The notes under the pieces: model-generated
What the model was told of the DNA's origin: nothing
Seen by the model: only the letters and a program-made list of their open reading frames with translations
Database searches by the model: none
In this document: positions 8,898 through 15,998 of the stretch, piece after piece
Layout of the letters: each line of letters begins with the position of its first letter
How positions within the stretch are numbered: position 1 is the first letter of the stretch
IMG/VR virus record: IMGVR_UViG_3300023179_000059
Coordinates: 1-64,000 of that record
Strand: one strand, 5' to 3'
Origin: a virus
Taxonomy: Duplodnaviria; Caudoviricetes
DNA length: 64,000 nt
Translations under genes and position numbers: made by a program

Positions 8898-11800
8898 ATG
8901 TCAAGATTTGTATTAACTGCACAACTACAACTACAAGCACCAACAAATACTGCTCAAGTTGTTAGGCAGATACAGAGTCAGCTTAATAATGTTCAAGTAA
9001 ATGTTCAAGTACAGGGTACGGCCCAAGCTACGCGACAGGTTCAACAAGTCGCCCAATCTTTAAATGCCGCAAACTCAGCGGCTTCAAACTTGGGCCGTAC
9101 CTTTGCTATTTCAGTAAAAAGATTTACGGCTTTAGCTGTGGCAACTAGGGCCGTTAGTCTATTTACTAATACTTTATCTAATGCAGTAAATGAAGCAATT
9201 GACTTTGAACGTCAGTTAATTAAAGTCGCTCAAGTAACAGGACAAACTATTGGTGAACTAAGATTTTTGACTAAGTCTATTACTGATTTATCTACTGGAC
9301 TTGGCGTTTCATCAAAAGATTTACTTAACACATCGCAGTTATTATTACAGGCCGGTGTTAGTGCTAGAGATACAGAAGTAGCACTTAAAACATTAGCCAA
9401 GGCAGCACTTGCCCCAAACTTTGATAGTCTTAGTGAAACTACTGAAGGTGCTATTGCTATTTTAGCACAATTTCAAGAAGGTGTCGGTTCTTTAGAAGGT
9501 CAATTAAGTTCTATTAATGCTGTTGCTGGCGCATTCGCGGTAGAAGCTGGAGACTTAATTGACGTTATTCGTAGAACTGGTGGTGTGTTCAAAGCTTCTG
9601 GTGGTAGTCTTAATGAATTAATTGCATTATTTACAAGTGTAAGAGCAACTACGCGAGAAAGTGCAGAAAGTATTGGTACTGGTTTGCGTACAATTTTTAC
9701 ACGTATTCAACGCCCCAAGACAATTGAGTTTTTAAAACAATTTGGCGTAGAACTTGTTGATCTTGAAGGTAAGTTCGTTGGCCCATTTGAAGCAGTAAGA
9801 CGATTAAGTGAAGCACTAACCGGTTTAGGTGAACGTGATATTACATTTATTCGTATTGCTGAAGAGCTTGGTGGATTCCGTCAGATTGGTAAAGTATTAC
9901 CATTACTACAACAATTTAAAACTTCACAAGAAGCTCTTAATGTTGCACAAAAAGCTGGAACCGGTTTAACAAAAGACGCGGAAACTGCACAACAAGCACT
10001 AGCCGTTAGAATTACTAAAGTACAAGAAGAATTCCTTGCTCTTGTTAGAGCGATCACTGAAACAAGTTCATTTCAATTTTTTGCCAATACTACTCTTAAT
10101 CTTGCTAGTGCTTTAATTAAACTTGCAGACGCACTAAAGCCAATTATTCCATTGTTAACAGCAGTTGCTACTATTAAATTAGCCAGAGGACTTAGTAGTT
10201 TTGTTGGTGGATTTGGTAGAGGTATAGGTTCTGGTAGAACATTTAATAAGGGTGGAAAAGTACTTGGTTTTGCTAGAGGTGGAATGGTTCCCGGTACTGG
10301 AAATAGAGATACTGTTCCAGCAATGTTACAGCCCGGTGAATTTGTTATTAGAAAGAGTAGTGTTAATAAACTTGGTGCTGGTAATTTAGCGGCTATGAAT
10401 CAGAATAGATATGCCAAAGGTGGAAAGATTAATATAAAACCGGGAGCTATAGGTGGATTTTTCTTACAACCAGAAGAAGGCATTGATAGAAAGGGAGTAT
10501 CTGTCAATCAAATGGTACAAGTTAGGGGTGTCAAAGCTTTAAACGCTTTGGGTGCTATTGATCCTAATGATCCAAAATTAAGAGCTGAAACATTTGAGTC
10601 TGCTACTATTGCACAGCAAGCTAAAATTTTAGGTGTAAAAAAGTTAAATTCTAAAGTACCGAATAAAGTTTCTATTGGTGGTGGAAAAAAAAGAAATACT
10701 TTTACGCCAGATGGAGAATTTGCAAAAGGCATAGGATTAAATGCAGACGAACAAGCTAATAATAGATTAACCAAAAGAATTACTTCTGGAAAAATTAAAC
10801 TTAGTAAAGATTCTAAATTTGCAAAAAATGTTGAATTATCTGGAAATATAACTAGTTATTTTCCGGGTGGATCGGATATGAAAAAAAATTCTGATGTTGC
10901 CAATATAGTTTCTCAAGCCACATCTAATGCTTTAAGTCAAGCTGTTAAAGTAGCAGCTAATCAAACAAAATCTATTTTTGCAAATAATCGATCAATTCGC
11001 CCAACAGATGCTGGAATAGACTCCGCATCTCAAAGAATAGCTACTGATTCTAACGCTACAAAAACCACAGAGGGCTTCGTTTTTGAAGGTTTAATTCAAG
11101 GAATTACTGGCGCTCAATTAGCTGGAGGTCAGTCTAATTTTGATTTTCCAGCAGAGTCTATACGCAATAGCAGAAAATCTTTACAGGCTATGTTTACAGA
11201 TAGCTCTGGCGAAGGAATGGATAGTTTAATTAAAGCCGACGCTAAACGTACTAATACACCAGATAATATAGAAAGTATAGTCAATAAATTAGTAAATGAT
11301 ATCAATAAAGGAAATTTGCTTGGTGTAAATTTTGAAAAATTTGCCTCTGGAGGTAGAGCCAAGGGCATACTTCCAAGACCAAGTGCTATTAATGATATTA
11401 TTAAATCTGGTGGTGGATATGTTGATATTGATCGTACTTTATTAAGAACAGTTGGTGATATCGCTTACGGTAAAGCTAGAACAGAACAAGAAAAACAAGC
11501 TGTACTACAAAAGTATTTCTTAGATCCAGTTGCAAGATTGAAAGATATTAAATCTGTTGGATTAACACAATTTGGTAAGCAACTTCAAACCTCAATAAAG
11601 TCTGGTCAAATACAGGGTTCTAGATTAAGAGTTCTTAGTAAGTCTACAGAAGTACCCGGTGTTCGTTCTTATCTTAGTGGATTGTTTGGAATACCACCCG
11701 GAAATATGAGATTTACTGCTGGTGGAAGTAAAGTTCCATTCATGCGTAATCGTGGACCACTTGTTGATGATATTACTTCTAATGCACGATTTGCTTCTGG

Positions 11801-14800
11801 AGGTTCTGTCGGCACAGATACCGTTCCAGCACTATTAACTCCCGGTGAATTTGTTGTAAATAAAAAATCTGCTCAGTCAATTGGCTATGGCACTTTAGGT
11901 CGAATGAATAAAGTTGGAAAATATGCTAAAGGTGGTGTTGTTCAAAAATTTGCCACTGGTGGTCAAGCACAGGGAAATGGTGGCAATTTATTTGGTGGTA
12001 TTGGCTCACAACTAACACTTGTTACAGCAAGTTTACAGGCACTAATTCCACCAATTGACGAAAATAGTAGCGCGACAGCAAAATTAACTAATAACTTTTT
12101 AAGTCTAGCAACAACTGTTGGTGGAGCTATTTTTGCATTAGAAGCTTTTGGACTTACAATTAATAAAGAACTTATTGGTAAAGTATTTAAATCGTTAGGA
12201 AGTGGCAAAGGGGGTCTTGGGGATATTATTGGAGGATTTCAAAGACAGGGTGGAAAGACTACAAGAACAACTGGTGAAAGTATTGGTGAAGCTTTTAGTA
12301 TTTCCAAAGAGCGTAGTAAAAGAGCAAAAGATTTATTAGCTGCTAGATCTGCTAGAAAAAGTTCACCATTTCAATTAGGTAGCAGTAGAGATTGGTTGGA
12401 TCAACTTAAACAAGAAACAACAGATTTAAATCTAAGACGAGCAAAACCAACAAGTTTAACTGGAAAACTTGGACAATCTTTGGGAAGAAATGAAACTTTT
12501 GTTAAAGCAAGTGAGCTTGCTCAATCTGCCAGTACTAAACTTAGAAAAGGAACTACTAAAGCTAGAGATTTTCTTGGTCAATTACCCGGTTCTGATATTG
12601 ATATTGGAGATATATTTGGAAGATTTAAAAAAGGAGTAAATCTTGGTTCTACTGGTCAATTTTCACTAAAAAATATAATATCTGGTCAAGGAGGAAATGG
12701 TGGAATAGCTGGTAGATTAGGTGGAGTTGTTGGCAGAGGCGCTGGAGCAATTGGTGGTGCAGTTAGCAGGGGTGCTGGATTAGCTGGAAACGTTCTTAGT
12801 AGAATACCCGGAGCCGGTACTGTTGGTAGATTTGCTGGTCGTGCTAGTGGAGCAATTGGTGGAGCAATATCTGGTGTCGCTTCTGGTGGAATTGGTGGAG
12901 TTGTTAGTAGTTTAACAGCATTAGCTGGACCATTAACAGCGATTGTTGGATCAGCAACACTTGTTTCTGGAGCTTTTAACGCAGTAGTTTCTAGTTTATA
13001 TGATTATGATACACAGTTAAAAAAGGCAACAGAAAAGGGAGACGTTCAAAAGGCTGGTGAAATTGCTGGAAAACAATATGATCTAGAAGCCGCCAACAGT
13101 TTAAGAACTGGTGGAGCATTTGTTGGTGCTGCTATTGGAACATTTTTTGGTGGTCCAATTGGTTCTGCGATAGGAGCAGCTATTGGAACTGGCCTTGGTA
13201 CATTAATTGCAAATTTACCATTTGGAGATAAAATATCAGAATTTGTAAACGTTTTGTTTGGTGGTAAAACAAAAGAAAGCACCATAGCATTAGCACAAGC
13301 ACAAGCGCAATTAGTAAAAACGTCACAAGAATTACAAAAAGCTGAAAAAACTACTGCTGATAGTATAAAAGAATTCGAAGATGGTACAATTAATGCTGCT
13401 GACGCTATGCAACGTGTTATGGTGGCAACAGCATCCGCCGAAACATTAAGACAAAGTACACAAACGGCAGTTAATAAAAATCTAGAGAATAAATCTACTG
13501 GCTTTGGGGCTGGCGTTAGAAACACTTTAGCTCTTGGTGGACTCAATCCTTTTTATGAAACTGCTGGAGCAAGAAATACAAAAATAGATGAAGAAAACGC
13601 TAAATTAGTTGCTGGACAGCAAGAACAGATTTTAAAAGCTAATCAATTGAGAACACAAGCCGGTTTAGCTACAGCTAGACCAGAGATTTTATCAGCTATT
13701 TCTCAAGGAAAAACACCAGAACAGGTAAAAGAATCGTTAATACCACAGAAGAAAGTATTAGACGATATAAGAAAACAAGCATTAGAAACAAGACAGCAGG
13801 CTTTTTCAGCAGAAAAGCGTGGAGATACAGAAACAGCTTCTAAATTGAAGGAACAGGCAGATGCATTAAGAGAACAAGCAAATGATTATGAAAAAAGTAT
13901 TGATAACTTAATAAAAGAGCAAACAAGGCTTGAAAAATCATTAAAAGCTTTAGATTTAGGATTAAGAGGCCCAACGGCAACAGCATCTGCGGCAGCAGCA
14001 CAATTAGAATATTTTGCATCTCAAATTGAAGGAACAGCACTTCCAGCCGTTGGCGCTTTAGGATTATTAGAAGCTTCATTTACTTCTGCTGGCAATGCAT
14101 TAGATAGAACATCTTTAGCTGAAGCTACTAATAGTGTAGTTCAAACTTTACAAGAAGTTGGCGCAACAGCTAGTAGTATAGATAAATTTAAAAATACAAC
14201 AGAAAGTCTTAATACAGTTCAGTCTAGATATGCTAGCGTAGCAGCAGAAATTGCGGCAGAACAAAAGAAAAGTGGCAAAGCATTATCAGCAGAACAGGTG
14301 CGAGATAAATTTGCAGAAAAACTTGGCGAAGGAATGCCAGATGAAATTAAAGATCTAATAAATGGTATTGAATTAACCGACGAAATTAAAAATCAAATTG
14401 CTAGAGGGGATTATAGTGGAATTGGAGATGCAATAGGTGAACAGGGTAAAAAATTATTAGAACCAATACAAAAAATTGTACAAGACTATCAAAAAGCAAA
14501 TCAAGTAGTCATAGATCTAACCAAGAAAAGGATAGATGCTGAAAGAAACTATGTTGCTTCTATAAAAGAAGCGCAAGACATAATAATGGAAGGTAGAGAA
14601 ATACAAGCTAAATATGGCGGTGCTGCTGTAACACAAGAAGAAAGACGGGGATCAATACTAAAATCAGCTAATGCTGCCAATAGATTAACTGGATTAAATG
14701 AATTAAGAACTGGAAGTGCGGCAGAACTTAATGCTAGAAGCAAACAAATAAATGCAGCATTTGCTCAAAATCAAAGAAGAATAGCTGGCGGGGAAGGCGC

Positions 14801-15998
14801 TGGAAAAGCTGGTGGAGAACAATTAAGACAACAACAAGAAGACTTAAAGAACGCACAAAAACAACAAGTAGAAACTATTAGAAGTTTAATTAAACTAGAA
14901 GAAGAAAATCTTAGACTTATTGGAGAAAAAAATAAGCTTGAAAAAGATTCTGTTGATGCTCTTGTTAGTGGAGATATTGATAAGTTTTTTGAACAACAGG
15001 CAGCAGCAGGAGCGCAAGCGGCAATTGCTCTTGGCTCAGAAAGATTGCAAGGAGCTTTTGGTGCTAATGCACTAGGCGCAGCCGCACAAGATATTAAGAG
15101 ACAACAAGAGGCTGGACAACAAACATTATTTGGACAACAATTAGCTGGTCCCGGCGGATTGACAGAAAGAGCGTTTGGTGCAGCAATAGGTGCTAGAGGA
15201 ATTACTGATCCAAGATTAGCACAGGTTGCGGCAGGAACAACTGCTGAAGAAAGTGCTGCACAAGCAAGATTAAGAGATTTAGGTGGAGCATTAGGAGAAG
15301 CTGGGCAATTAGGCGCAGACTTAGCACAAATGGAAGTAGCTCAAGCAACAATGAATGTACAACAAGCAGAAATTAAATTACAAGAAGTAATTGATCGTGG
15401 TAAACAAGCTTCTGCACAGGCTGAACAAGAAATGGGACAAGCAGTTGGTCGTAGACTTGGTGGTTTAATTTATGCTAATCGTGGAATTTTTGTACCCCGT
15501 GGTACAGATACAGTTCCAGCAATGTTAACACCGGGCGAGTTCGTTGTTCGTCGTGAAGCAGTACAGCGTGGCAATAATCTACAAATGTTACAGGCCATGA
15601 ATCGTGGATCAACTACTGGACAAAGTAGTATTGGTGGAGCTATTGGAATGGCGAATGGTGGCGTTGTAAATCAAACTCAATATTTAGCGTTTGGTGGTTT
15701 TGCAAAAGCAATTAATGGATTATTAGATGGTGATTTTATCAATAAATTATCTCAAACATTTAATTCATTTATGTCAGATATGAGTAAAAATATTGATAAA
15801 CTTAATTCTACTAATTTTAATATTAAACTAGACACTACTAATATAAATGTAAATCTTAATGGTGGAACATTCTTAAGTCAAATGACAGAACAGGTTAGAA
15901 GTGCCGTAATTCAAGAAGTTTCTAAAGAAATACAAAATTATTCTGCTGGAGAAGGCGGAAGATTAAGGAAAAATTCTGGCATTGTAAATAAAGGATAA
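8898..15998 (+). CDS. Tail tape measure protein (TP901-family core) with embedded cargo-like cassettes
   Basis: 2366 aa, Ala/Gly/Gln-rich; TP901-type core (AIDFERQLIKVAQVTG...GLRTIFTRI); glycine-zipper segments; position after chaperones. Confidence 0.9.
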   Translation: MSRFVLTAQLQLQAPTNTAQVVRQIQSQLNNVQVNVQVQGTAQATRQVQQVAQSLNAANSAASNLGRTFAISVKRFTALAVATRAVSLFTNTLSNAVNEAIDFERQLIKVAQVTGQTIGELRFLTKSITDLSTGLGVSSKDLLNTSQLLLQAGVSARDTEVALKTLAKAALAPNFDSLSETTEGAIAILAQFQEGVGSLEGQLSSINAVAGAFAVEAGDLIDVIRRTGGVFKASGGSLNELIALFTSVRATTRESAESIGTGLRTIFTRIQRPKTIEFLKQFGVELVDLEGKFVGPFEAVRRLSEALTGLGERDITFIRIAEELGGFRQIGKVLPLLQQFKTSQEALNVAQKAGTGLTKDAETAQQALAVRITKVQEEFLALVRAITETSSFQFFANTTLNLASALIKLADALKPIIPLLTAVATIKLARGLSSFVGGFGRGIGSGRTFNKGGKVLGFARGGMVPGTGNRDTVPAMLQPGEFVIRKSSVNKLGAGNLAAMNQNRYAKGGKINIKPGAIGGFFLQPEEGIDRKGVSVNQMVQVRGVKALNALGAIDPNDPKLRAETFESATIAQQAKILGVKKLNSKVPNKVSIGGGKKRNTFTPDGEFAKGIGLNADEQANNRLTKRITSGKIKLSKDSKFAKNVELSGNITSYFPGGSDMKKNSDVANIVSQATSNALSQAVKVAANQTKSIFANNRSIRPTDAGIDSASQRIATDSNATKTTEGFVFEGLIQGITGAQLAGGQSNFDFPAESIRNSRKSLQAMFTDSSGEGMDSLIKADAKRTNTPDNIESIVNKLVNDINKGNLLGVNFEKFASGGRAKGILPRPSAINDIIKSGGGYVDIDRTLLRTVGDIAYGKARTEQEKQAVLQKYFLDPVARLKDIKSVGLTQFGKQLQTSIKSGQIQGSRLRVLSKSTEVPGVRSYLSGLFGIPPGNMRFTAGGSKVPFMRNRGPLVDDITSNARFASGGSVGTDTVPALLTPGEFVVNKKSAQSIGYGTLGRMNKVGKYAKGGVVQKFATGGQAQGNGGNLFGGIGSQLTLVTASLQALIPPIDENSSATAKLTNNFLSLATTVGGAIFALEAFGLTINKELIGKVFKSLGSGKGGLGDIIGGFQRQGGKTTRTTGESIGEAFSISKERSKRAKDLLAARSARKSSPFQLGSSRDWLDQLKQETTDLNLRRAKPTSLTGKLGQSLGRNETFVKASELAQSASTKLRKGTTKARDFLGQLPGSDIDIGDIFGRFKKGVNLGSTGQFSLKNIISGQGGNGGIAGRLGGVVGRGAGAIGGAVSRGAGLAGNVLSRIPGAGTVGRFAGRASGAIGGAISGVASGGIGGVVSSLTALAGPLTAIVGSATLVSGAFNAVVSSLYDYDTQLKKATEKGDVQKAGEIAGKQYDLEAANSLRTGGAFVGAAIGTFFGGPIGSAIGAAIGTGLGTLIANLPFGDKISEFVNVLFGGKTKESTIALAQAQAQLVKTSQELQKAEKTTADSIKEFEDGTINAADAMQRVMVATASAETLRQSTQTAVNKNLENKSTGFGAGVRNTLALGGLNPFYETAGARNTKIDEENAKLVAGQQEQILKANQLRTQAGLATARPEILSAISQGKTPEQVKESLIPQKKVLDDIRKQALETRQQAFSAEKRGDTETASKLKEQADALREQANDYEKSIDNLIKEQTRLEKSLKALDLGLRGPTATASAAAAQLEYFASQIEGTALPAVGALGLLEASFTSAGNALDRTSLAEATNSVVQTLQEVGATASSIDKFKNTTESLNTVQSRYASVAAEIAAEQKKSGKALSAEQVRDKFAEKLGEGMPDEIKDLINGIELTDEIKNQIARGDYSGIGDAIGEQGKKLLEPIQKIVQDYQKANQVVIDLTKKRIDAERNYVASIKEAQDIIMEGREIQAKYGGAAVTQEERRGSILKSANAANRLTGLNELRTGSAAELNARSKQINAAFAQNQRRIAGGEGAGKAGGEQLRQQQEDLKNAQKQQVETIRSLIKLEEENLRLIGEKNKLEKDSVDALVSGDIDKFFEQQAAAGAQAAIALGSERLQGAFGANALGAAAQDIKRQQEAGQQTLFGQQLAGPGGLTERAFGAAIGARGITDPRLAQVAAGTTAEESAAQARLRDLGGALGEAGQLGADLAQMEVAQATMNVQQAEIKLQEVIDRGKQASAQAEQEMGQAVGRRLGGLIYANRGIFVPRGTDTVPAMLTPGEFVVRREAVQRGNNLQMLQAMNRGSTTGQSSIGGAIGMANGGVVNQTQYLAFGGFAKAINGLLDGDFINKLSQTFNSFMSDMSKNIDKLNSTNFNIKLDTTNINVNLNGGTFLSQMTEQVRSAVIQEVSKEIQNYSAGEGGRLRKNSGIVNKG
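10269..10424 (+). repeat. TMP DTVPAML-PGEFV module copy 1 (FARGG...YAKGG)
   Basis: Protein-level repeat; other copies at 11790-11963 and 15450-15698. Confidence 0.85.
11790..11963 (+). repeat. TMP DTVPALL-PGEFV module copy 2 (FASGG...YAKGG..FATGG)
   Basis: Protein-level repeat visible in the translation. Confidence 0.85.
15450..15698 (+). repeat. TMP DTVPAML-PGEFV module copy 3 (RRLGG...MANGG...LAFGG)
   Basis: Protein-level repeat visible in the translation. Confidence 0.85.

What the first reader, a model, noticed from the sequence alone, without database searches (positions are those of the whole stretch)
11355..11804. TMP cassette B is a minimal HAD-phosphatase-like domain
Seen, within exactly 150 aa bounded by two FASGG sites: motif I YVDIDRTL (DxDxT, 11424-11438), motif II LRVLSKS, motif III Lys (GGSK) and motif IV PLVDDITSN (11760-11783). 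Established: this is the HAD catalytic set seen in PNKP 3'-phosphatases and 5'-nucleotidases. Inference: an injected phosphatase acting on nucleotides, RNA ends or nucleotide second messengers at the moment of infection.
Basis: inference. Interest (0 to 1): 0.78.

Follow-up and report, generated by a model that had tools for sequence, protein, structure and literature searches.

The report
Phosphatase-like domain inside phage tape measure
A 150-residue cassette inside a lake phage's giant tail tape measure protein is a conserved, tape-measure-only domain with the fold and catalytic residues of HAD-type phosphatases, and its metal-binding strand lies on opposite sides of the domain in different relatives.

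Summary
Window 11355-11804 encodes aa 820-969 of a 2366-aa tape measure protein (TMP). It is bounded by two FASGG sites encoded by a 16-nt direct repeat (15/16 identical, 450 nt apart). One relative with the same upstream context lacks exactly these 150 residues.

The module occurs in over 110 metagenomic TMPs, never free-standing, and not in 185,579 prokaryote genomes. D24, D26, T28, S97 and K126 (S/T at 95) are invariant or nearly so.

Two AlphaFold models (core pLDDT about 90) give a small Rossmann-like core with a four-helix cap after the DxDxT strand. Foldseek's best hits are almost all HAD phosphatases, but weak (E 5e-3 to 1e-2). Sequence and profile searches find no HAD family.

Only the query's derived clade has it after the Lys, the canonical HAD order. 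Keeping the element through relocation argues that it is needed.

Phosphatase activity, substrate and delivery are inferred, not shown. An earlier agent of this scan reached the HAD-cassette reading on near-identical DNA of another genome.

The parts
8898..15998 (+). Tape measure protein ORF, 2366 aa, that hosts the cassette
   Evidence: ORF list and translation. Pfam PhageMin_Tail at aa 126-312, E 1.3e-24, plus PHROG tape-measure families.
11339..11354 (+). 5' copy of the 16-nt direct repeat, encoding (F)ASGG; upstream cassette boundary
   Evidence: the repeat finder family D4. Relative P0117 joins ...NFEKFATGG directly to TVGTDTVPALL at this point.
11355..11804 (+). Cassette B: 150-aa HAD-like domain (TMP aa 820-969)
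   Evidence: Translation. Present in over 110 TMP homologs. AF2 core pLDDT about 90. HAD-led fold hits.
11424..11468 (+). Strand S1 end and motif I with the flap-like turn: D24-I-D26-R-T28-L-L-R31-T32-V-G34-D35-I-A37-Y38
   Evidence: D24, D26, R27, T28, R31, T32, G34, D35 and A37 are invariant or nearly so in 112 sequences; Y38 is 108/112. The strand ends just before D24 in both models.
11451..11600 (+). Four-helix insertion (cap-like) between S1 and S2, cassette residues about 33-82
   Evidence: DSSP helices 48-55, 59-70, 73-82 and 87-97 of model 1 (cassette numbering +15), pLDDT about 90. Same four helices in model 2. Invariant F55, R61, D64, T71, G74, L77.
11625..11645 (+). Strand S2 and motif II: L-R-V-L-S95-K96-S97
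   Evidence: Strand 106-110 in model 1 and 124-128 in model 2. S95 is S/T in all; S97 is invariant; K96 is invariant among 112 and becomes A only in the most divergent clade.
11706..11732 (+). Strand S3 and motif III: M-R-F-T-A-G-G-S-K126
   Evidence: Strand 133-135 in model 1. F120, T121, G123 and K126 invariant. Aligns locally to AphA '...NMNPVIFAGDK'.
11757..11786 (+). Relocated acidic strand element P135-L-V-D138-D139-I-T-S-N-A144 (candidate motif IV / Mg site)
   Evidence: Conserved in the query clade P0002-P0009. 9/10 identical to the N-terminal PLVDDILSNA of the sister clade. N-terminal in 116 of 125 homologs. Not confidently modelled in the query (pLDDT < 50). The N-terminal version is modelled at pLDDT > 90.
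11789..11804 (+). 3' copy of the 16-nt direct repeat, encoding (F)ASGG; downstream cassette boundary
   Evidence: the repeat finder D4, 94% identical to the 5' copy, spacing exactly 450 nt.
11805..11936 (+). Flanking DTVPALLTPGEFV module and YAKGG site (second of three in this TMP); context, not part of the domain
   Evidence: Translation. Internal repeats of this module in the TMP and its homologs.

Best explanation
Cassette B is a compact phosphoaspartate-type domain, HAD-like in its features, built into the tape measure protein as an in-frame, swappable cargo module.

Its predicted active site has four parts:
- a nucleophile Asp (D24) with an Asp+2 (D26) and Thr (T28) at the end of the central strand;
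- a Ser/Thr (S95/S97) at the end of the neighbouring strand;
- a Lys (K126) after the third strand;
- an acidic pair on a short strand (PLVDD), expected to hold Mg2+.

A four-helix cap inserted straight after the DxDxT strand, the position of HAD C1 caps, carries many invariant residues, including three Arg. It probably forms a pocket for an anionic substrate.

In most relatives the acidic strand comes first, which is the strand order of CheY receiver domains. In the query's clade a 10-residue PLVDDI(T/L)SNA element was lost from the N-terminal side and gained after the Lys, which restores the canonical HAD order.

The most likely activity is Mg2+-dependent phosphoryl transfer, i.e. phosphomonoester hydrolysis. 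The domain would act once the TMP leaves the tail at infection and the domain folds in the host envelope or cytoplasm.

Shown here: conservation, cassette behaviour, predicted fold class, motif placement and the relocation. Inferred: catalysis, Mg2+ binding by PLVDD, delivery compartment and substrate.
For: (1) Conservation. Over 110 TMP homologs carry the module at 41-76% identity (close kin 96-100%). D24, D26, R27, T28, R31, T32, G34, D35, A37, F55, R61, D64, T71, G74, S97, G102 and K126 are invariant or nearly so, including across the deepest split.

(2) Fold. AF2 model 1 (query) has core pLDDT about 90. Model 2 (majority form) has mean pLDDT 85, pTM 0.77, and residues 21-170 above 90. Both place DxDxT at the end of a strand, followed by a four-helix insertion, a strand ending in S, a helix, a strand, then K.

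(3) Fold searches.
- Foldseek against PDB: model 1 is led only by HADs (PSP 1nnl E 1.1e-2, prob 0.96; AphA; dNT-like). Model 2 is led by AphA 1z5g_D (E 5e-3, prob 0.99), PSP and e(P4).
- Foldseek against BFVD: PNKP phosphatase and 5'-nucleotidases among the top hits.
- VIA wide, model 1: class C acid phosphatase 3pct (Z 5.3, rmsd 6.1, 123 aligned), AphA 4.9, T4 Pnkp 4.7, dNT 4.6, phage AfhF 4.6.
- VIA wide, model 2: about 40 receiver domains at Z 5.8-7.0, rmsd about 3.3, about 102 of 120 residues aligned, model range 18-177; also 3pct at Z 6.3 with 124 aligned.
[quoted passage not shown] 2015).

(4) The PLVDD element.
- It co-occurs with the module: exactly one near each module, none in TMPs that lack the module.
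- It lies 28-39 aa before D24 in 116 of 125 sequences and 114 aa after D24 in the 8-member query clade.
- That clade is nested, with SH-aLRT 90, and is sister (99) to a clade whose N-terminal PLVDDILSNA is 9/10 identical to the query's C-terminal PLVDDITSNA.
- Retention through relocation argues that it is functionally required and lies where both chain ends can reach it.

(5) Cassette behaviour. P0117 lacks exactly the 150 aa at the FA[ST]GG repeat, and the cassette is flanked by a 16-nt direct repeat. In other TMPs an ADP-ribosyltransferase domain (PF03496) sits directly upstream of the module. This fits a cargo-enzyme region.

(6) Profile alignment. The hhalign alignment to an AphA family profile puts motifs I, II and III in register, although without statistical support.
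Against: - No sequence method recognises a HAD. There is no Pfam hit at E <= 10 for the query or any of 30 members, and no PHROG or PDB sequence or profile hit.
- hhalign against AphA gives probability 1-2%, P 0.025-0.05.
- All structural matches are below the level the tools call clear: no Foldseek E <= 1e-3, and VIA Z < 8, where a common Rossmann-like arrangement alone can score.
- The predicted core has only 3 (query) to 5 (majority, two of them 2 residues long) strands. It is smaller than any characterised HAD.
- In the query model the PLVDD tail has pLDDT < 50, so its docking is not shown.
- I had no access to model coordinates, so the DD-to-DxD distance was never measured.
- K126 to D138 is only 12 residues, short for the canonical helix between motifs III and IV.
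- No experiment exists, and the host and the compartment reached are unknown.
Confidence: 0.55

Rival explanations
1. The domain is a receiver-like (CheY-type) metal or phosphoryl-binding switch rather than a phosphatase. Mg2+ binding, or Asp phosphorylation by a small-molecule donor, would change its conformation and so control TMP folding, release from the tail or membrane insertion.
For: With the full majority-form model, VIA's best matches are receiver domains (Z 5.8-7.0, rmsd about 3.3, about 102 of 120 residues aligned). The motif order DD, D, S/T, K is that of receivers. Receivers and HADs share the same active-site chemistry.
Against: The invariant Asp+2 (DxDxT) and a helical cap inserted right after the nucleophile strand are HAD hallmarks and are absent from receivers (my knowledge of both families). 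Foldseek, which also uses sequence, ranks only HADs first. There is no PF00072 hit. The query clade has abandoned the receiver order. Z of about 7 is within the range of generic flavodoxin-like matches; a de novo Rossmann 2x3 protein is the top hit.
Confidence: 0.13
2. The domain is a different acid-metal enzyme on a Rossmann-like scaffold, for example a Toprim-like nuclease or a DxD nucleotidyl- or glycosyl-transferase, that only mimics the HAD motif pattern.
For: DD on one strand and DxD on a neighbouring strand also recall Toprim (E...DxD) and other two-metal sites. An injected nuclease or transferase would fit a cargo region that elsewhere carries an ADP-ribosyltransferase. Fold statistics are too weak to exclude other Rossmannoids.
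Against: No Toprim protein, GT-A protein or nuclease appears among the listed top hits of the five fold searches. The invariant S/T at the end of the next strand and the invariant Lys are specific to the HAD/receiver site. The cap position matches HAD C1 caps.
Confidence: 0.08
3. The domain is catalytically inert and structural. It would act as a folded spacer, plug or interaction module of the TMP (for a tail chaperone, the tube lumen or a host envelope protein), and its conserved polar residues would serve folding or binding.
For: The domain is found only inside TMPs and never as a free enzyme. It is smaller than known HADs. Some close TMPs do without it, so it is not essential for tail assembly. 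No sequence-level membership in an enzyme family was found.
Against: The pattern of invariance is concentrated on exactly the residues that form the HAD/receiver catalytic site. It persists across the deepest split, where overall identity falls to 41-46%. The acidic strand was retained by relocation. A spacer would not need D-x-D-R-T, S, K and DD.
Confidence: 0.17

Closest known systems
Class B (AphA) and class C (e(P4), P. multocida, B. anthracis) bacterial acid phosphatases of the HAD superfamily (Pfam PF03767)
   Same: They are the best structural matches: Foldseek 1z5g_D at E 5e-3, prob 0.99; VIA 3pct at Z 5.3-6.3 with 123-124 aligned. Both have DxDxT at the first core strand, a helical insertion after it, S/T on the next strand and K after the third. 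There is a local sequence echo, 'F.IP..NM..IF.G..K'.
   Different: There is no significant sequence or profile similarity (Prob 1-2%). The TMP module is about 130-160 aa against 210-250 aa. It lacks the last core strand(s). The acidic strand is N-terminal in most members. It is embedded in a 2000-4000-aa virion protein rather than being a free periplasmic enzyme.
T4 polynucleotide kinase/phosphatase (Pnkp) 3'-phosphatase domain and phage or cellular 5'(3')-deoxyribonucleotidases (minimal 'DD'-type HADs)
   Same: These are small HAD domains with DxDxT and a DD motif IV. They appear among the VIA and BFVD hits: 5uj0 Z 4.7, 1ltq 4.4, 6g2n 4.6, and a BFVD PNKP phosphatase at E 8.5e-2.
   Different: The scores are weak. 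The cap type differs, since Pnkp has essentially no C1 helical bundle. No sequence similarity was found. Nothing here points to nucleic-acid ends as the substrate.
CheY-like receiver (REC) domains of response regulators
   Same: The majority form has the same order of catalytic elements along the chain: acidic pair on strand 1, Asp on the central strand, S/T, then Lys. It also gives the best VIA Z values (5.8-7.0, about 102 of 120 residues aligned). The active site and chemistry are shared with HADs.
   Different: Receivers have no Asp+2 and no cap. There is no PF00072 match. The query clade has the acidic strand after the Lys. The strand 1 to strand 2 connection is 8 residues with no helix.
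Enzyme motifs embedded in tape measure proteins (for example Rpf-like and peptidase M23-like motifs of mycobacteriophage TMPs, and the muralytic C-terminus of T5 pb2; from my own knowledge, not checked here)
   Same: All are catalytic-looking modules carried in frame inside a TMP and presumably ejected with it.
   Different: The known examples attack peptidoglycan. A phosphoaspartate-type domain in a TMP was not found in the paper library.

Membership tests
HAD superfamily | Motif I, DxDx[TV], at the C-terminal end of the first core strand | tested here: met
   D24-I-D26-R-T28. D24, D26 and T28 are invariant and R27 is 111 of 112 in 112 sequences. The motif directly follows strand 36-38 in model 1 and 54-56 in model 2.
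HAD superfamily | Motif II, conserved S/T at the end of strand S2 | tested here: met
   L-R-V-L-S95-K-S97. S95 is S/T in all and S97 is invariant. The strand is 106-110 in model 1 and 124-128 in model 2.
HAD superfamily | Motif III, conserved Lys after strand S3 | tested here: met
   K126 is invariant in all sequences, including the divergent clade. It follows strand 133-135 in model 1.
HAD superfamily | Motif IV, acidic residues (DD or GDxxxD) at the end of strand S4, following motif III | tested here: inconclusive
   In the query, D138-D139 lie 12 residues after K126 and are conserved within its clade, but they were modelled at pLDDT < 50. In 116 of 125 homologs the equivalent P[LM][VI]DD precedes motif I and is modelled at pLDDT > 90.
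HAD superfamily | Rossmannoid three-layer core with HAD-type cap position; significant structural match to solved HADs | tested here: inconclusive
   Top hits are homogeneously HAD but weak: Foldseek E 5e-3 to 1e-2, prob up to 0.99; VIA Z 4.4-6.3. Only 3-5 strands are predicted.
HAD superfamily | Recognition by HAD family sequence profiles | tested here: not met
   No Pfam family at E <= 10 for the query or 30 members. No PDB chain by phmmer or profile search. hhalign against an AphA family profile gives Prob 2%.
HAD superfamily | Mg2+-dependent phosphoryl transfer through an aspartyl-phosphate intermediate | not testable with these tools
   This needs an enzyme assay and BeF3- trapping.
CheY-like receiver domain (PF00072) | (beta-alpha)5 fold with DD after strand 1, Asp after strand 3, T/S after strand 4 and K after strand 5 | tested here: inconclusive
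   The majority form has this order and VIA Z 5.8-7.0 over model residues 18-177. The query clade does not have the order. Helix 1 is missing and a 50-residue cap is inserted.
CheY-like receiver domain (PF00072) | Recognition by the receiver sequence profile | tested here: not met
   No PF00072 hit. hhalign of A2 against E. coli CheY gives Prob 0.2%.
Phage tail tape measure protein (PF10145, TP901 family) | PhageMin_Tail domain in a very long protein in the tail gene block | tested here: met
   PF10145 at aa 126-312, 87.7 bits against a cutoff of 33.2, plus PHROG tape-measure families. The ORF lies in a run of same-strand ORFs followed by very large ones; I did not annotate these.

The most novel reading that the evidence does not exclude
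One protein family contains both topologies of the phosphoaspartate active site. The ancestral TMP module has the receiver (CheY) strand order combined with HAD-specific features (Asp+2 and a C1-type cap). A derived clade, the query's, has converted to the canonical HAD order by moving a 10-residue Mg-binding strand from the N- to the C-terminal side. This would be a live natural example of the circular-permutation route between receiver-like and HAD-like folds. The domain would also be an active phosphatase that a siphophage delivers on its tape measure to disarm a phosphorylated host molecule, such as an immune signal, a nucleotide or an envelope precursor, in the first seconds of infection.
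Probability: 0.3. Interest if true: 0.85.

Novelty: new variant of a known kind. Interest (0 to 1): 0.62.

Why it matters
TMP-embedded enzymes known so far cut peptidoglycan. If active, a phosphatase-type domain carried on the tape measure would extend the idea of virion-delivered effectors in long-tailed phages. In sister phages it sits next to an ADP-ribosyltransferase cassette. The host target it points to would act before any phage gene is expressed.

For protein evolution, homologs about 60% identical carry the same Mg-binding strand on opposite sides of the domain. This gives a directly testable case of how the receiver and HAD topologies can interconvert. The clean cassette boundaries (FA-x-GG repeats) also suggest a natural system for swapping cargo in a virion protein.

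Tried and rejected
- Sequence routes that gave nothing for the cassette: Pfam and PHROGs, Pfam on 30 members, phmmer and profile search against PDB sequences, and tblastn against 50,697 phage records.
- megablast of the TMP against phages found no match.
- The ESM Atlas search gave only a 0.75 hit to a DUF, below any useful level.
- hhalign of the family profile against E. coli AphA, an AphA family alignment and CheY gave probabilities of 0.2-2%. The AphA alignment built had little diversity (>78% identity), so this test was weak.
- Prokaryote genomes: neither the back-translated pattern scan nor search for related loci found the module. No host or prophage context was obtained.
- No whole genome is held for this window.
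Subsequences for alignments were instead taken from IMG/VR and metagenome loci found by a degenerate DNA pattern.
- Complex prediction of the query core with its own PLVDD-containing tail as a separate chain returned 'no answer' (score 0.00, controls not run). This is neither support nor evidence against docking.
- Toprim and GT-A readings were considered. They were set aside because no such fold appeared among the listed hits of any search, and because the S/T and Lys positions fit HAD/receiver sites.
- The idea that PLVDD is a generic linker motif of TMP cassettes was rejected. It occurs once per module-bearing TMP, next to the module, and is absent from TMPs without the module.
- Two papers on the HAD-CheY relation (PMC1220148, PMC4516285) are not held. 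The detailed residue mapping between the two families therefore rests on my own knowledge.

Full report
**1. What is at the coordinates**

The window carries a phage structural block with one 2366-aa ORF at 8898-15998 (+). Pfam places a PhageMin_Tail domain at aa 126-312 (87.7 bits), and several PHROG tape-measure families match the N-terminal 450 residues. It is therefore a giant tape measure protein (TMP).

The finding's interval, 11355-11804, is in frame and gives exactly 150 residues, TMP aa 820-969. FASGG precedes the first residue and closes the segment. At the DNA level the two sites are a 16-nt direct repeat (11339-11354 and 11789-11804), 15/16 identical and 450 nt apart, with a weaker third copy at 11948.

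**2. Is it a real domain?**

Yes.
- A region search returned 1356 TMP-like proteins. 111 of the 120 listed carry the 150-aa segment at 41-76% identity, with closest kin at 96-100%.
- An exhaustive HMMER pass over 1.84 billion representatives found only 52 clusters. Most are proteins of 1200-4355 aa; the six shorter ones (168-867 aa) look like fragments, and none is a free-standing protein.
- IMG/VR holds about 50 contigs with the module.
- No copy was found in 185,579 prokaryote species genomes or in 50,697 deposited phage records.
- The carriers are uncultured phages known only from metagenome contigs. This window has 31% G+C.

Conservation is strongly uneven. D24, D26, R27, T28, R31, T32, G34, D35, A37, F55, R61, D64, T71, G74, L77, S97, G102 and K126 are invariant or nearly so, even in the most divergent clade.

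**3. Cassette behaviour**

P0117 is 83% identical over TMP aa 1-819. It reads ...NLLGVNFEKFATGG|TVGTDTVPALL..., which is the query sequence minus exactly the 150 residues.

Other near relatives keep the module but have a different segment upstream. P0004 is 98% identical over aa 1-511 and then unrelated until aa 788. In P0057 the upstream slot holds an ADP-ribosyltransferase domain (PF03496, aa 1067-1276), with the module at 1307-1446.

The module is therefore one of several in-frame, exchangeable inserts between the DTVPA..PGEFV/FA-x-GG units. An earlier agent of this scan reached the same cassette reading on near-identical DNA from another genome (e1-5487486). I reproduced it independently here.

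**4. Fold**

No sequence method recognises a known family. I built alignments from metagenomic loci (A1 with the query first, A2 with a majority-form sequence first) and ran both available AlphaFold jobs.

*Model 1 (query, 165 aa).* Residues 21-143 have pLDDT about 90. The order of elements is:
- a strand ending at V23, followed by D24-x-D26;
- four helices (cassette residues about 33-82);
- a strand L91-S95;
- a helix;
- a strand M118-F120, then GGSK126.

The N-flank and the C-terminal 22 residues, including PLVDDITSN, have pLDDT < 50.

*Model 2 (majority form, 189 aa).* Mean pLDDT is 85 and pTM 0.77, with residues 21-170 above 90. It has the same core, plus a confidently placed N-terminal stretch with two short strands (M26-V27 before D28-D29, and S36-I37) and two C-terminal helices.

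**5. Fold searches**

*Foldseek against PDB.*
- Model 1 is led exclusively by HAD enzymes: human and archaeal phosphoserine phosphatase, AphA, a deoxyribonucleotidase-like protein, beta-phosphoglucomutase-type enzymes and e(P4). The best E is 1.1e-2, with probability 0.96-0.97.
- Model 2 gives AphA 1z5g_D at E 5e-3, probability 0.99, then PSP and e(P4).

*Foldseek against BFVD.* PNKP phosphatase domains and 5'-nucleotidases are among the top hits, again weakly.

*VIA-align, Foldseek-independent.*
- Model 1: class C acid phosphatases (3pct Z 5.3, rmsd 6.1, 123 aligned), AphA (4.9), T4 Pnkp phosphatase (4.7), dNT-1 (4.6) and phage AfhF (4.6).
- Model 2: a de novo Rossmann 2x3 protein (Z 7.3), then about 40 response-regulator receiver domains (Z 5.8-7.0, rmsd about 3.3, about 102 of about 120 residues aligned, model range 18-177). 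Class C phosphatases score Z 6.0-6.3 with 123-124 aligned.

None of these values is individually convincing, since the tool notes warn that Z < 8 can be a common arrangement. But the hit lists are homogeneous, and the matched families are the two that share a phosphoaspartate active site (PMC5132288, citing Ridder & Dijkstra 1999 and Immormino et al. 2015).

**6. The acidic strand**

However, nearly every homolog has P-[LM]-[VI]-D-D 28-39 residues before D24, where the query has only RAKG.

- The element occurs exactly once next to each module, and it is missing from TMPs that lack the module. It therefore belongs to the domain and not to the linkers.
- Eight sequences (P0002-P0009) instead have PLVDDI[TP][SD]NA 114 residues after D24.
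- On a tree of the core region these form one clade (SH-aLRT 90), nested among N-terminal-type sequences.
- That clade is sister (99) to P0030/36/46/123/124, whose N-terminal PLVDDILSNA is 9/10 identical to the query's C-terminal PLVDDITSNA and whose C-end is the short SKVPLMRKFATGG.

The simplest reading is a single derived relocation of a 10-residue element from the N- to the C-terminal side. Tandem duplication of the cassette followed by two deletions is the classical route to circular permutation and would produce this (inference).

From my own knowledge of the two folds:
- The receiver order is acidic pair (strand 1), Asp (strand 3), T/S (strand 4), Lys (strand 5).
- The HAD order is Asp (S1), T/S (S2), Lys (after S3), acidic residues (S4).
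- The two orders are circular permutations of one another around the same site.

The majority form therefore has the receiver order, and the query clade has the HAD order. Both keep the HAD-specific Asp+2 and a helical cap inserted directly after the nucleophile strand.

This explains why model 1, which has no N-terminal DD strand, hits only HADs, while model 2 aligns end to end with receivers. The ranges reported for receivers (model 17-22 onto chain residues 1-7) put D28/D29 of model 2 about where the receiver acidic pair lies. I could not inspect residue-level alignments or coordinates.

**7. What remains unshown**

- The docking of PLVDD in the query form is not shown. It has low pLDDT in model 1, whose alignment is dominated by the other arrangement.
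- A split-chain complex run gave no verdict.
- Profile-profile comparison with an AphA family alignment puts motifs I-III in register and shows a local echo (LFGIP..NM..IFT against NFHIPATNMNPVIFAG), but at probability 1-2%.
- Activity, metal dependence, substrate and the compartment reached after ejection are all inference.
- The structural neighbours AphA and e(P4) are periplasmic nucleotide phosphatases, and the ART cassette in sister TMPs would need cytoplasmic NAD+. The data therefore do not decide between envelope and cytoplasm.

**8. Verdict**

The functional story is untested.

The added value of this follow-up has two parts. First, the acidic strand is an obligatory, relocatable part of the domain. 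Second, the family spans the receiver-type and HAD-type orders.

I rate it a new variant of a known kind, with moderate to high interest. The same module was already flagged by this scan on other DNA.

Noticed in passing
window 10425-11354 (TMP aa 510-819), compared with P0004, P0007 and P0057: The segment upstream of cassette B is itself exchangeable. P0004 is 98% identical over aa 1-511 and then unrelated until aa 788. P0007 behaves likewise. In P0057-type TMPs this slot holds an ADP-ribosyltransferase domain (PF03496, aa 1067-1276) directly before the HAD-like module.
   Followed up: partly
window 11805-11936, also 10269-10420 and about 15450-15700: The DTVPA[ML]L.PGEFV modules with FA-x-GG sites recur three times in this TMP and many times in its homologs. 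A similar stretch gives the only phage-database hits: a 950-aa virion 'lysozyme' in the baseplate-hub region of Synechococcus phage S-SCSM1 (32.5% over 126 aa) and a Streptomyces phage VWB 'endolysin'. Its role is unknown.
   Followed up: partly
L028:5353-5919 (also protein P0056, aa 580-760): One TMP has the normal N-terminal PMVDD and a second GG-LIDDIK element immediately after the module's closing FAGGG. This is the arrangement expected of an intermediate in a duplication-deletion route to permutation.
   Followed up: no
L016, L036, L042 (proteins P0136, P0139): A deeply divergent clade of the module has SKS replaced by TAS and GGSK by PGTK, and is flanked by GFIPNF(S/A)P repeats instead of FA-x-GG. 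It still keeps DD, DxDRT, S and K.
   Followed up: no
window 12000-13000 (TMP aa about 1030-1370): Long glycine-zipper and hydrophobic stretches follow the cassette region. Relatives score Pfam Gly-zipper families there. This probably forms the membrane-inserting part of the TMP, so the cassettes lie N-terminal to it.
   Followed up: no
whole window: G+C is only 30.8% (TMP 37%). There is no near relative among deposited phages by megablast, and the best TMP N-domain hits are about 25% identical (Bacillus and Rhodococcus phages; Gordonia phages are the commonest hosts in the tally). The lineage appears uncultured.
   Followed up: partly
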